Assembly (NCBI GenBank): GCA_951406725.2
Contig: OX597817.1
Coordinates: 96,348,001 to 96,412,000, forward strand
DNA: 64,000 nt
Direction: 5' to 3'
From: Octopus vulgaris
Lineage: Eukaryota
The notes under the pieces are model-generated. The model was not told the origin of the DNA and searched no databases. It saw only the letters and a program-made list of their open reading frames with translations. The translations under genes were made by a program, and so were the position numbers. Below are positions 57,342-63,497 of this stretch, one piece after another. Each line of letters begins with the position of its first letter. Within the stretch, counting starts at the first letter, position 1.

Positions 57342-57487
57342 AAAAGCAATAAAGATTCAAGTTAATTTAAATGAATTTACTTGAATATGGTACCTAACTT
57401 AGATGCATAAAAAAAACTATACTGATTTAACAATACAGTAATGTGGGGTGATTATAAGCGAGAATGAAGCAACAAGAATGGATAGGT

Positions 57488-57578
57488 TTTTAGTACAATC
57501 GTTTCATACAAGGACAGGTTTTATTAAAAGTTGCAAAAATTACAGCATATAAACGTGTCCCGTACTCATCAGCTAAAA
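57488..57578 (-). ncRNA. Type I hammerhead ribozyme (inverted pLTR copy)
   Basis: Reverse complement of 62984-63074. Confidence 0.85.
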
Positions 57579-58605
57579 TACATGTGAGTTCTCTAGACAT
57601 CCTAGTGGTTGAGGCTATACTCATGAAGTAATGTAGATAATTAAGTAACATAAACAGATTTCAAAAGTTCATTAAAGTTCTTTAAAGATGATGTACAGTC
57701 TTATCACAGAATTTTAAAAAAAAAAGTCTTAATAGCATCACAGAGAAGGTGACCCAATCCATAGTGCACATATGAATTTCCAGAGATATGATGAGGGATT
57801 ACATACTCACAGAAGGCAAATTTATCCATTGTTAATTACAACGAGGTGGGTTTCAATTCCTGCTTATTAGAATTACAGAGAGGGTGAATTAATCCTTTGT
57901 ATAGATGCACAATTTCCAATGGTGTAGGTGTAAATTTCCAAGGAATTTCATATTCACAGGCGATAAATTTATCAATGGTTGAACACAATGAGGTAGGTAT
58001 CAATTCTTGCTATATGATTAGGTATTTGCCACATTAATCACATTACTGCTATTTACAAGAGGCTGTAGCTATTTAACTTTTAAAGGCTGAAGGGCTTACT
58101 AGAGCTGTATAGAATAGAAAAGGGAAGGGCATAGAAGAAAAGAGAGAAAATAAAAAGAGAGAAAATAAAATAAAAGAGGAGGGAGTAAAAAGGGGGGGAA
58201 AGGGGGACTCAAAGAGAAGAGAAAAGGAAAAAGAGAATAAGAAGAAGAAAAAGAAAAAAGAGAAAAGAGAAAGAAATAGGGAAGGAAGGGAAAAAAAGAA
58301 AAAGAAGAAAAAAGAAAAAAGAAAAAAGAAGAAAGAAGAAAGAAAAAGAAAAAAAGGGTTCTAGTTATACAGAAGAATTAGTAGACGACAAGTCTGGTTT
58401 TAGTTTACAGGCATCTAGGAATTAGAGGAGAATATTATTCTTTGACCAGTTAAAACAGTTAATTTATTGCTGTTGAAATCAGCTTTGAATTTAAAGAGAA
58501 TCTAATTCAAGTAAATTCATTTAAATTAACTTGAATCTTTATTGCTTTTTGAATATATTCCCATACAGTCTGTATGTTTTTCTGGTACTTAATTTCTCAG
58601 CAAGA

Positions 58606-61467
58606 ATGGAAAAAGTAAACATTGAGTTCTCCCCTAAAGACATCCCCTTACATAGTATAGATGAATATAATTGGCTTCTCATTCATAGGATTAACGATTT
58701 CATCAGAAGAATCAGGTGGAAAACGTACCATTTTGATGTCAAACAGAAGAAGAAACCACAGGAAAGGAATACCGACATGAATTTTAGAAGAATTTTTAAA
58801 AGTAGAAAAAGCCCACCTCAGAACCCATTCCTGGAGAATTTTGAGAAAGACTTGCTGAATTTTATAGATGATATTAGCTTCAAGGAACACCCGTTAAGGT
58901 ATAACCCTCACCTTAGACACCTTAGGAACTTTATTCAGTCAACCCGGTGCAAACATGGAATCCTAGTACCAGCAGATAAAACGGGTAATATGTATAGAGT
59001 TGATTACGATATTTATAGCAAATTAATTAGGAAAGAACTAAACTCCAAATATAAAATTACGACTAGGATTAATTTGAAAAAAGTAAACATGGAAATGAAA
59101 GAGATCATGGAAAAGCTAAATTTAACGGATAGAACGGAGCCACTTAAACCGTGTGAGCCCAGGATCAACCTTAAAGACCACAAAAAGAACTTCTTGGAAA
59201 ACCCTTCGGTAAGGCTGATCTGTCCAACTAGGTCGGACATTGGCCGACTTAGTAAATCTATCTTGGATACTGTTCTACCCCAAATAACCCCTCTTCTCCC
59301 CTTAAACCTATGGCTAAGTACCGATGAAGTTCTAAAATGGTTTAACTCTCTAACTAATACTAGTAGTCTGTCCTTTATTCAGTTCGATATTAATAGTTAT
59401 TACTCTAGCATTTCCCCTATCTTACTCAACAAATCACTAATATTTGCCATGAATCGCTCCCTCATATCTAGAGAAGAAATCAATATTGTGCTACTAGCTA
59501 GGAAGACATTTATAGAATTTGAAGATAAATTATGGACTAGAGCAGATACACCAAATTTTTTTGATATACCAATGGGTTCCAGTGATTCGGCTGAGGTAAC
59601 CAACCTAGTAGGCGCATATCTATTAAAATGCATAAGCAAGGATATCCCAGAATTACAAGGGGGTCTATATAGGGATGATGCTCTGTTTGTTATCCCTAGT
59701 AATAATAAATCTGTTATAGAAAGGATTAGAAAGAAAATTAATAAGTTCTTTAGGGATTTCAACCTCAGTATAACGTATGAACCGGGCACTAAAATAGTTA
59801 ATTTCCTAGATACTACGCTAGACCTTAACTCCAAACTACATTACCCATTTAGAAAGGAAGGTGAAATCACGAATTACGTAAATAAATTATCAAATCATCC
59901 CCCAAATATTATAGAATCTTTAGTAAGAAATATTTCATTAAGAATTTCAAAATTATCATCCAATAAGGATATTTTTAACTCCCATTCTGAGCATTATAAT
60001 GCGGCGTTAACTAAGGCTGGATACAACCAAAAGATTACATTCGTTGATAAGGGGAACTCACGTATTCCTAATAATGAAGTTATCAATAATCACGTAAGCA
60101 GCAATAAAGACCAAGCCCGAAATAAAAGTAGAATTAAACTAACGGTAAACGCTAATCTAGCGTACAGGCCCAACAATTCAAATAGAAACATTGACCAGAA
60201 CATAGGTAACTCGGATAGTATTGAAGTAGATAAACCTAAGATGCACACAAATAAAAATAAAAATAATGGTAATAAATACAATAACTCCGGTGAGATGAAT
60301 AGTAATAATTCTACGAACCCTAAATTTAATAAAAAAGATATATTATGGCTGAATATTCCTTTCAACTGTGCGATACAATCGGATATACAGAACAAATTCA
60401 AAGTGATTCTGGAAAAAAATTTCCCTATCTCTCATAGATATCATAGAATTATTTCTAGGAAAACAGTTAGGATTTCTTATTCAACCCTCCCAAATATGTC
60501 CACTTTAATAGCTAAGATTAATAATAACAACATTAAACTAGCCAGGAAAGATAGAAATATAAATAATAATAATAATAATAATAATAATATCAGCATGAAT
60601 ACCAATAGCAATTGTAATAATACTACCAACAATAAAAACAGCAATAGTAACTATCAAAACATAGGTGAAATTAGTAACCACAGAATGACTAATAACATTA
60701 ACATTAATAGTAATAATAGCAATGCCGATATTAGTAGAAGTAATAATGTTAATAATAGAAATAATAGAAATAGGGAAAATAGAGAAAATAAGGAGAATGA
60801 AAATATTAGTGATATCTATAACAACAATATGCAGTCGGATAAAAAGACTAGCAATAATATTAACATTACCAATAATATAAGAAATCATGGTAGGACTTTA
60901 GATCTAAATAATGAAACAGAAGGATCAAGAAATAATAGCAATACTTTAGATATCAGCACCAACTATAGAAATGATAATCAAAATAATAGGAACCTAAAAC
61001 ATCTACCCAAGAATAATCCAAAGCCTGAAGGTGTTCCTCCTGTGTGTAAGTGTAGAATAAAATCAAAATGCCCGGCACCTGGTCTATGTGGAGAAAATAA
61101 TGTAATCTATAAATGTACCATATCCACGGAGAATAACAAATATTATTACATTGGATGTACAATTAATTTTTTAGCTAGAGTTAGAAATCACATCTCGACT
61201 TTTAAATTACGTCATAAAGCTGGTACCACCACACTTTCAAACAAAATCTGGGAACTCAAAAATAATAATAAAAATTATAACCTTAATTGGGAAATAGTTA
61301 GGAGAGCAATTCCGTATAAAAATAGTAGGGTTGGTTGCCAACTATGCTCCATGGAGACATATGAAATTCTAAAGCATAGAAAACATAGAAACCTATTGAA
61401 TAACCATATCGAACTAGGTCAAGTTTGTGTCCACGCTAAATTGAAGACTTTAAAATATTTTAAATGA
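58606..61467 (+). CDS. PLE reverse transcriptase + GIY-YIG endonuclease (953 aa from first ATG)
   Basis: PADKTGN, RLICPTRSDIG, FDINSYYSSI, PMGSSDSAEVTNLVG, GLYRDD, VNFLD, SNHPP; CKCRIKSKCPAPGLC; VIYK...YYIG...R...H; CQLC...E...CVH. Confidence 0.93.
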   Translation: MEKVNIEFSPKDIPLHSIDEYNWLLIHRINDFIRRIRWKTYHFDVKQKKKPQERNTDMNFRRIFKSRKSPPQNPFLENFEKDLLNFIDDISFKEHPLRYNPHLRHLRNFIQSTRCKHGILVPADKTGNMYRVDYDIYSKLIRKELNSKYKITTRINLKKVNMEMKEIMEKLNLTDRTEPLKPCEPRINLKDHKKNFLENPSVRLICPTRSDIGRLSKSILDTVLPQITPLLPLNLWLSTDEVLKWFNSLTNTSSLSFIQFDINSYYSSISPILLNKSLIFAMNRSLISREEINIVLLARKTFIEFEDKLWTRADTPNFFDIPMGSSDSAEVTNLVGAYLLKCISKDIPELQGGLYRDDALFVIPSNNKSVIERIRKKINKFFRDFNLSITYEPGTKIVNFLDTTLDLNSKLHYPFRKEGEITNYVNKLSNHPPNIIESLVRNISLRISKLSSNKDIFNSHSEHYNAALTKAGYNQKITFVDKGNSRIPNNEVINNHVSSNKDQARNKSRIKLTVNANLAYRPNNSNRNIDQNIGNSDSIEVDKPKMHTNKNKNNGNKYNNSGEMNSNNSTNPKFNKKDILWLNIPFNCAIQSDIQNKFKVILEKNFPISHRYHRIISRKTVRISYSTLPNMSTLIAKINNNNIKLARKDRNINNNNNNNNNISMNTNSNCNNTTNNKNSNSNYQNIGEISNHRMTNNININSNNSNADISRSNNVNNRNNRNRENRENKENENISDIYNNNMQSDKKTSNNINITNNIRNHGRTLDLNNETEGSRNNSNTLDISTNYRNDNQNNRNLKHLPKNNPKPEGVPPVCKCRIKSKCPAPGLCGENNVIYKCTISTENNKYYYIGCTINFLARVRNHISTFKLRHKAGTTTLSNKIWELKNNNKNYNLNWEIVRRAIPYKNSRVGCQLCSMETYEILKHRKHRNLLNNHIELGQVCVHAKLKTLKYFK

Positions 61468-63074: not shown

Positions 63075-63084
63075 ACCTATCCAT

Positions 63085-63329
63085 ATATATATATATATAT
63101 ATATATATATATATATATATATATATATATATATACGTATATATATATATATATATATATATATATATATATATATATATATATATAGTATATATATATA
63201 TATATATATATATATATATACTATATATATATATATATATATACATATATATATACATATACATATATATATACATATACATATATATATACATATATAT
63301 ATATATATATATATATATATATATATATA
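63085..63329. repeat. (TA)n microsatellite
   Basis: Direct inspection. Confidence 0.95.
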
Positions 63330-63331
63330 CA

Positions 63332-63497
63332 AAAAGCAATAAAGATTCAAGTTAATTTAAATGAATTTACTTGAATATGGTACCTAACTTAGATGCACCA
63401 AAAAAACTATACTGATTTAACAATACAGTAATGTGGGGTGATTATAAGCGAGAATGAAGCAACAAGAATGGATAGGTTTTTAGTACAATCGTTTCAT
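63332..63497 (-). repeat. Third (inverted) pLTR copy running into the assembly gap
   Basis: Near-identical direct copy of 57342-57507. Confidence 0.9.

What the first reader, a model, noticed from the sequence alone, without database searches (positions are those of the whole stretch)
57342..63497. Intact, young Naiad-type Penelope element with ~1 kb inverted pseudo-LTRs and paired ribozymes
Seen: a stop-free 953-aa RT+GIY-YIG ORF with intact catalytic motifs, and arms 57478-58505 and 62065-63084 that differ at only a handful of positions. The order is inverted pLTR, a 45-bp sense pLTR stub, ORF, sense pLTR, (TA)n, and another inverted pLTR. Known: PLEs form inverted and tandem pLTR structures and carry hammerheads. 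Inference: this is a recent, possibly still active insertion into (TA)n, and the junction at 58505 records a template switch. The Naiad assignment rests on the GLYRDD, MGSxDxAEV and CxC..CP..G.C motifs.
Basis: partly seen in the sequence, partly recalled or inferred. Interest (0 to 1): 0.72.

Follow-up and report, generated by a model that had tools for sequence, protein, structure and literature searches.

The report
Young Hydra-clade Penelope element, not Naiad
This is a young Penelope-like jumping gene with an unbroken coding frame, of the known Hydra group rather than Naiad; its two-armed sister copies carry one long and one short end, which likely records both cut DNA strands copying the same RNA from two fixed start points.

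Summary
In detail: a 953-aa ORF (58606-61467) and inverted arms with 1014 matching bases, 6 substitutions and 5 indels. The Naiad label is wrong. The endonuclease is C-terminal, and RWK, DKT, CxCX5C, CxxC/CxH, a type I hammerhead and (TA)n targets match the Hydra clade (PMC8557442).

The genome holds 814 exact hammerhead-core matches, roughly 500 insertions. The nearest copy differs at 10 of 4157 sites, and the ORF core is under purifying selection.

All 35 two-armed insertions picked by ribozyme pairs alone have one long end (118-nt tail) and one short end; either arm may be the longer. The arms agree at 1095 of 1107 polymorphic comparisons. The likely mechanism is priming from both target strands on one RNA.

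This copy lacks 92 nt of the terminal repeat on its coding strand, so it is probably not a source copy. Its two ribozymes lie on opposite strands. One-sided tails are published, and this scan noted the same layout and idea on other DNA before. No long reads or population data were available.

The parts
56115..57341 (.). (TA)n-rich host tract, left
57342..58505 (-). inverted arm, 1164 bp, 5'-truncated copy of the element's 3' end, finishing in the LONG end
57342..57457 (-). tail between the short-end and long-end sites (116 nt here, about 118 in the family); predicted to fold into two hairpins
57488..57578 (-). type I hammerhead of the inverted arm; predicted cut at 57494
58505..58505 (.). head-to-head junction with a 1-nt overlap
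58505..58551 (+). sense stub: last 46-47 nt of the tail, starting at the foot of a predicted hairpin; no ribozyme, no short-end site
58552..58605 (+). 54-nt leader; the tail-to-leader junction occurs exactly 15 times in the genome
58606..61467 (+). 953-aa ORF (P0001): RWK 37, DKT 124, RT motifs FDI 260, MGS 323, YRDD 355; the model's best Foldseek hit is telomerase TERT
60055..60336 (+). Asn-rich insert 1 (aa 484-577, 29% N), absent from 17 aligned homologues, low model confidence
60550..61047 (+). Asn-rich insert 2 (aa 649-814, 37% N), absent from homologues, low model confidence
61045..61467 (+). C-terminal linker CxCX5C (814-822) and GIY-YIG-type endonuclease (VIY 833, YIG 848, R858, CxxC 911, CxH 941); no CCHH motif
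61468..62064 (+). 3' UTR part not duplicated in the inverted arm
62065..63084 (+). sense arm (3' UTR and pseudo-LTR), ending 20 nt before the family's short end
62984..63074 (+). type I hammerhead: 6-bp stem I, 7-bp stem II with long loop, minimal stem III with self-complementary loop; predicted cut after 63068
63085..63330 (.). (TA)n-rich host tract, right
63331..63497 (-). long end of a second insertion of the same family, cut off by an assembly gap; carries family-majority alleles where the left arm differs
63498..63597 (.). 100-N scaffold gap; no element sequence in the following 8.4 kb
   Evidence: L067

Best explanation
This is a young Hydra-clade Penelope-like retrotransposon with an unbroken coding frame, lying in a (TA)n tract, whose two arms were likely made by both cut DNA strands priming reverse transcription on one RNA at two fixed sites about 118 nt apart. 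Shown: domain order and motifs, copy number, low divergence, purifying selection on the ORF core, and one long plus one short end per two-armed insertion. Inferred steps: (1) the GIY-YIG domain would nick both strands of (TA)n; (2) one 3' end would prime at the short site and the other at the long site, each next to a TA-like stretch and a predicted hairpin in the RNA; (3) the long-site cDNA would displace the short-site cDNA; (4) the two cDNAs would be joined at their 3' ends by microhomology or end joining, giving the head-to-head junction (58505 here); (5) the template would be ribozyme-uncut or circular RNA, since both start sites lie 3' of the cut site and cDNAs run across it. In this copy the long-primed cDNA is the 1164-nt left arm, and the other ran a full unit plus 46 nt. 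Its coding strand lacks 92 nt that hold the short site, so it is likely a dead-end copy with a good ORF.
For: Hydra motifs and order; all 30 homologues counted have YRDD and the CxxC...CxH pair. End rule: 33 of 33 loci fetched only because they held a diverging ribozyme pair (L031-L048, L071-L085), plus L007 and L009 already held, are long+short; 1 of the 36 listed pairs was not fetched. End-pattern searches give 31 of 31 diverging pairs long+short, 0 long-long and 0 short-short, on C1 and the first 58 Mb of C2 (this set overlaps the first). One template: arms agree at 1095 of 1107 polymorphic-site comparisons over 61 loci, 1.1% discordant against 21% (minimum 14.8%) in 2000 shuffles. In 13 of 37 simple pairs both arms stop within 15 nt of the same position (shuffle mean 1.7, maximum 7 in 10000); of the rest the long arm reaches further in 13 and the short arm in 11. 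The window's arms share an allele (58459/62111) found in none of 49 other arms. In vitro, a Poseidon-clade protein cuts and extends both strands and starts at two adjacent internal RNA sites that bound the tail (PMC11167929).
Against: No intermediate was observed; steps 1-5 are read from end products. PMC11167929 found no difference in start site between the two strands and no homology between target and start site, so annealing at TA-like stretches is my inference. The window's own arms disagree at two lineage-diagnostic sites (57755/62811, 57816/62750) and tie with L048 for the most discordant of 61 loci; this needs gene conversion, polishing error or two templates. Haplotype agreement could also come from two RNAs of one source locus. 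14 of 20 loci fetched as lone ribozyme hits have one arm only. The perfect palindromes also fit fold-back. No RT tree against reference clades was built.
Confidence: 0.68

Rival explanations
1. It is a Naiad element.
For: Naiads share pseudo-LTRs, inverted arms and (TA)n targets and occur in cephalopods (PMC8557442).
Against: The endonuclease is C-terminal; DKT not DKA; no CxC before the RT; no CCHH; RT3-RT4 spacing equals Hydra-1_Amil (63 residues D to M, my count); canonical hammerhead present. The listed Naiad_Obim and Naiad_Ovul proteins begin with the endonuclease.
Confidence: 0.02
2. Hydra-clade element, but the inverted arm arises by self-priming or fold-back (one cDNA copied back on itself, or self-priming on an antisense template as proposed in PMC3846280), with the tail left by endonuclease resolution.
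For: 13 of 37 simple pairs are near-perfect palindromes. Arms share haplotypes. Short overlaps at junctions are common. PMC3846280 (passages) and PMC8557442 argue along these lines.
Against: A copied-back arm cannot hold sequence missing from the first arm, yet the long-ended arm reaches further 5' in 13 pairs and the short-ended arm in 11. In the window the short-ended arm is 4.5 kb and the long-ended arm 1.2 kb.
Confidence: 0.15
3. Hydra-clade element whose two arms come from two RNA molecules held by a protein dimer, each subunit fixed to one start site.
For: PMC11167929 predicts a dimer. The window's arms differ at two lineage-diagnostic sites. Two RNAs from one active locus would also share haplotype.
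Against: Only 12 of 1107 comparisons are discordant although several lineages of similar age coexist. The shared stop points in 13 of 37 pairs are simplest if both cDNAs ran off one RNA end.
Confidence: 0.12
4. The inverted arm or the whole arrangement at this locus is an assembly artefact.
For: A 100-N gap lies 413 nt from the right arm. The left arm has a tail variant shared only with L002 and absent from other runs. L002 and L005 share 3.3 kb of flank at 97% on different contigs. No contig bridges 58505.
Against: The arms are not identical (6 substitutions), share a private allele, and show the family's pattern of a long end opposite a shorter one; 23 of 36 ribozyme-marked insertions on C1 are two-armed. 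The artefact reading is plausible only for the piece at 63331-63497 and for single bases.
Confidence: 0.05

Closest known systems
Hydra clade of C-terminal EN+ Penelope-like elements, incl. Hydra-1_Obim of Octopus bimaculoides (Craig et al. 2021, PMC8557442; main text parts 1-5 of 10 and supplement searches read)
   Same: RWK, DKT, YRDD, CxCX5C linker, no CCHH, CxxC and CxH, canonical hammerhead, (TA)n targets.
   Different: Unit is 4646 bp against 1.4-3.0 kb for the Hydra rows seen (Hydra-1_Obim 2507 bp, 'no pLTR'). The ORF is 953 aa; the 17 aligned homologues are 670-745 aa at 34-37% identity. The tail is about 118 nt against the 30-40 bp given for Penelope-like elements.
Inverted 5'-truncated pLTR with one-sided tail, and Asn-rich ORF inserts, in Adineta vaga Penelope elements (PMC3846280; passages read)
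   Same: Head-to-head inverted arms, tail on one arm, palindromic junctions, in-frame inserts of about 30% Asn.
   Different: The tail is called optional there and the model is self-priming on an antisense template. Here the tail is on exactly one arm in 35 of 35 blind-picked pairs, and either arm can be the longer.
Poseidon_Ac in vitro system (Frangieh et al. 2024, PMC11167929; parts 1-2 of 4 read)
   Same: Both strands cut and extended; two internal RT start sites bounding the tail; uncut RNA is the main substrate.
   Different: Different clade. Its start sites lie inside the ORF, 111-118 nt after the start codon; here both lie before the start codon. In the parts read it does not assign one start site to each strand.
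Metazoan type I hammerheads of Penelope-like elements (Cervera and de la Pena 2014, PMC4209133; passages read)
   Same: Short stem III with a palindromic loop, thought to need a dimer to cut; circular template proposed.
   Different: Stem II carries a 46-nt loop. The two copies in the window are on opposite strands and could not dimerise in one transcript.
Naiad clade (PMC8557442)
   Same: Pseudo-LTRs, inverted arms, (TA)n preference.
   Different: N-terminal endonuclease, DKA, insertion in fingers, CCHH, no canonical hammerhead: none fits.

Membership tests
Naiad | GIY-YIG endonuclease N-terminal to the RT | tested here: not met
   RT YRDD at 355, VIY/YIG at 833/848
Naiad | DKG motif changed to DKA | tested here: not met
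   DKT at 124, no DKA
Naiad | CxC motif between EN and RT | tested here: not met
   the only CxC is at 814-816, after the RT (Cys list)
Naiad | Insertion in fingers domain between RT3 and RT4 (missing in some Naiads) | tested here: not met
   D261 to M323 spacing equals Hydra-1_Amil, counted by hand
Naiad | CCHH motif with two Cys inside GIY-YIG | tested here: not met
   one Cys (837) between VIY and YIG
Naiad | No canonical hammerhead | tested here: not met
   type I hammerhead in each arm
Hydra clade | C-terminal GIY-YIG, single ORF | tested here: met
   Pfam found no family in P0001 and GIY-YIG in 2 of 18 alignment members
Hydra clade | RWK motif | tested here: met
   aa 37-39
Hydra clade | DKT motif | tested here: met
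   aa 124-126
Hydra clade | CxCX5C linker, CCHH absent | tested here: met
   aa 814-822
Hydra clade | CxxC and CxH near the end of the EN | tested here: met
   aa 911-914 and 941-943
Hydra clade | Canonical hammerhead motif near the 3' end | tested here: met
   sequence and pairing only; cleavage not tested
Hydra clade | Insertion into (TA)n | tested here: met
   window and nearly all ends listed
Hydra clade | Generally short, under 3 kb (descriptive, not diagnostic) | tested here: not met
   4646-bp unit
Hydra clade | RT groups with Hydra references in a phylogeny | not testable with these tools
   reference proteins were visible only as cut supplement text and could not be loaded; compared by eye
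Penelope/Poseidon, Neptune, Nematis | CCHH motif in the EN; RT5 of YVDD/YIDD type | tested here: not met
   no CCHH; YRDD here against YVDD, YIDD, FIDD in their rows

The most novel reading that the evidence does not exclude
Penelope-like elements build inverted insertions by an obligatory twin start: one RNA, two fixed start sites, one per cut DNA strand, each used once. The 'optional' tail is then the fixed mark of the strand primed at the 3'-most site, and this oversized Hydra family, with a 118-nt tail and hundreds of young copies, is a clean genomic record of that cycle.
Probability: 0.5. Interest if true: 0.6.

Novelty: new member of a known kind. Interest (0 to 1): 0.36.

Why it matters
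The element itself is an ordinary, if unusually large, member of a described clade. Its value is in the family: how Penelope-like elements make their tandem and inverted ends is still called undefined (PMC8557442), and the strict long-plus-short rule with single-haplotype arms gives a sharp prediction for the existing in vitro assay (PMC11167929). It also adds a young Hydra family with several unbroken ORFs in what is likely an octopus (nearest named relative P0028), where only a 2.5-kb Hydra consensus without pseudo-LTR was listed.

Tried and rejected
Rfam found no hammerhead; the mir-297-type hits are TA-repeat noise. The MFE fold of 62980-63084 does not form the hammerhead. Pfam gave nothing for P0001 and the PDB sequence search with alignment A1 nothing; the RT fold came from the model, whose 46 listed hits were all polymerases, with no GIY-YIG structure.

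Sequencing runs: no RNA holder listed. All runs laid were contigs and none bridged 58505 or a locus-specific flank, so expression, junction reality and presence/absence across individuals stay open. Target-site duplications cannot be read in (TA)n.

A linear ribozyme-cut monomer as template was rejected: none of the upstream sense pseudo-LTRs seen starts at the cut site and most begin upstream of it. Simple fold-back was rejected as the general route. L110-L118 (those with two arms) and older-family L102, L104, L105 also show long+short but were chosen from end patterns, so they are not in the blind count. In one search, L012 was cut by the locus edge (long end found), L007's true right end comes from L066, and L001 and L088 have a long end plus a shortened end. 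pN/pS among L001, L002, L005 rests on 3 or fewer differences and says nothing.

Literature: no paper held Penelope + pLTR + inverted + twin priming; a five-term search from 2024 returned only PMC11167929. The retrozyme preprint (10.64898/2026.07.22.740005, part 1 read) did not bear on this. Subscription papers are not searched.
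Full report
OBSERVATION. The window holds a 953-aa ORF at 58606-61467 without a stop. Arms 57478-58505 and 62065-63084 align with 1014 matches, 6 substitutions and 5 indels. The left arm continues to 57342; its last 46 nt recur as the sense stub at 58505-58551, and the junction has a 1-nt overlap. A third inverted piece at 63331-63497 ends at a 100-N gap, carries family-majority alleles where the left arm differs, and has no continuation in the next 8.4 kb. 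It is the end of another insertion. Both outer ends of the main element abut (TA)n.

RIBOZYMES. Rfam and the MFE fold missed them, but the conserved core and three stems of a type I hammerhead are in the sequence at 62984-63074 (+) and 57488-57578 (-). On 10 variants that I selected from the loci, the hand-written structure was paired in 150 of 150 cells, with two compensatory pairs, both from one divergent sequence; slid controls reached 31-63%. Stem III is minimal with a self-complementary loop, the type that PMC4209133 (passages) says needs a dimer. The two copies here are on opposite strands, so they are not a working pair. Cleavage is untested.

CLADE. Craig et al. (PMC8557442; main text parts 1-5 of 10) define Naiad by an N-terminal GIY-YIG, a CxC motif before the RT, DKA, an insertion in the fingers domain, CCHH and no canonical hammerhead. 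They define Hydra by a C-terminal EN, RWK, DKT, CxCX5C, no CCHH, CxxC and CxH, a hammerhead and (TA)n targets. P0001 has RWK 37, DKT 124, YRDD 355, CxCX5C 814, VIY 833, YIG 848, CxxC 911 and CxH 941. All 15 YRDD hits in the supplement are Hydra-clade rows, and other clades show YIDD, YVDD, FIDD or YLDD; long protein rows are cut in the held text, so Naiad RT cores were not fully visible. No tree was built. The 31 homologues are mostly unnamed proteins of about 700 aa; the one named hit is an Octopus sinensis gene model with 68% identity over residues 1-202. The model (mean pLDDT 73) has telomerase TERT as best structural match, E 4e-9. Two Asn-rich inserts (aa 484-577, 649-814) account for the extra length; such inserts are described in rotifer Penelope elements (PMC3846280, passages).

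FAMILY AND AGE. The genome search scored 40 of 1931 candidates and gave 30 loci. An exact 19-nt ribozyme core occurs 814 times, control 0. On C1, 55 matches make 36 insertions, which scales to about 530. The tail-to-leader junction occurs 15 times. Of 14 distinct loci matched by the exact N-terminal octapeptide, 7 have ORFs of 949-957 aa; L002 and L005 share 3.3 kb of flank and may be one locus. For pairs with 10 or more synonymous differences, pN/pS is 0.05-0.18 in the ORF core and 0.87-2.2 in the inserts. The window copy differs from its nearest relative at 10 of 4157 sites and from the farthest at 207. It has about 7 private substitutions in 4.5 kb. At the rate implied in PMC13282606 (JC 0.09 for 25 million years; passages), assuming it applies to this host, that is under about 0.5 million years, an upper bound because RT and assembly errors are included. 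An older sister family at 70-90% identity has the same two ends.

THE END RULE. Using the natural copy L003 as ruler (unit 4646 bp; ribozyme cut 4492), 3' ends fall at about 4528 (short) or 4646 (long). All 33 loci fetched only for a diverging ribozyme pair, plus L007 and L009, have one long and one short end; one of 36 listed pairs was not fetched. End-pattern searches give 31 of 31 long+short diverging pairs, an overlapping set. Of 20 loci fetched as lone ribozyme hits, 4 proved long+short, 2 had a damaged second arm and 14 were one-armed, 7 long and 7 short. Arms of one insertion agree at 1095 of 1107 polymorphic comparisons, against 21% discordance when shuffled. In 13 of 37 simple pairs both arms stop within 15 nt of each other (shuffle maximum 7); in the rest the long arm reaches further in 13 and the short arm in 11.

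MECHANISM. PMC11167929 (parts 1-2 of 4) showed for a Poseidon protein that both strands are cut and extended, that RT starts at two internal sites bounding the tail, and that uncut RNA is the main substrate. The family data fit one RNA primed twice: the short site first, then the long site, whose cDNA would displace the first; the reverse order would leave the short site covered. That gives one end of each kind, shared haplotypes, shared stop points when both cDNAs run off the RNA end, and free choice of which arm is longer. Fold-back cannot give both asymmetric classes. Both sites lie beside TA-like sequence and near predicted hairpins (tail fold z -3.35); the first hairpin keeps its pairing in the older family by eye, which I did not count. 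All of this is inferred from products. Against it: the window's arms differ at two lineage-diagnostic sites even though they share a private allele, and PMC11167929 saw no strand difference in start site and no target homology.

THIS COPY. The right arm stops at unit position 4508 and the stub starts at 4601, so the coding strand lacks 92 nt, including the short site. A transcript of this locus could not carry both start sites. It is likely a dead end as a template; whether it is transcribed is unknown. Other near-full copies keep a longer upstream pseudo-LTR with the ribozyme.

NOVELTY. Clade, inverted arms, one-sided tail, two start sites and Asn-rich inserts are each in print. I did not find the strict one-long-one-short count in print. 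I noted the twin-priming reading; look-ups then showed that this scan had reached similar readings on other DNA, which is not independent support. Verdict: a new, oversized member of the Hydra clade, with a family record that makes an open mechanism testable. Interest 0.36.

Noticed in passing
L097:1-3350 and L098:3693-7020 (flanks of L005 on C2 and L002 on C20): Two insertions on different contigs share 3.3 kb of 3' flank at 97% identity, yet their 5' sides differ and L002 lies beside a gap: a misplaced haplotype or a segmental duplication.
   Followed up: partly
L068:3751-3843: A divergent type I hammerhead of another family in that shared flank, with compensatory changes in stem I and a perfect palindrome at stem III.
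   Followed up: partly
unit positions 4233-4238 (about window 62810); L004, L006, L010, L037, L068: Several arms and upstream pseudo-LTRs begin within 6 nt of each other: a candidate transcription start or strong RT stop; longer upstream pseudo-LTRs also exist.
   Followed up: no
short ends, e.g. L006, L009, L020: 42 short ends read CG before the TA run where the element has CT, so both end types commonly have G next to the TA tract; the origin of this G is unexplained.
   Followed up: no
L099-L108: An older sister family (70-90% identity) with the same two end sites; L101, L103 and L107 have very short inverted long-end stubs.
   Followed up: partly
L095 (C23) and L096 (C26): Two near-full copies lie within 2.4 kb of contig starts, and L001, L002, L049 lie beside gaps: this family may break the assembly.
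   Followed up: no
P0028: An Octopus sinensis gene model named as an ankyrin-repeat protein begins with about 280 residues related to this element, probably an annotation fusion.
   Followed up: no
window 56968-57019 and L109 flank: A short non-TA interruption in the left TA tract appears, in part, next to the 5' junction of L109 as well, by eye.
   Followed up: no
window 49789-50867, 41437-42821, 54713-55154: Tandem arrays with units of 162, 363 and 159 bp at 89-95% matches.
   Followed up: no
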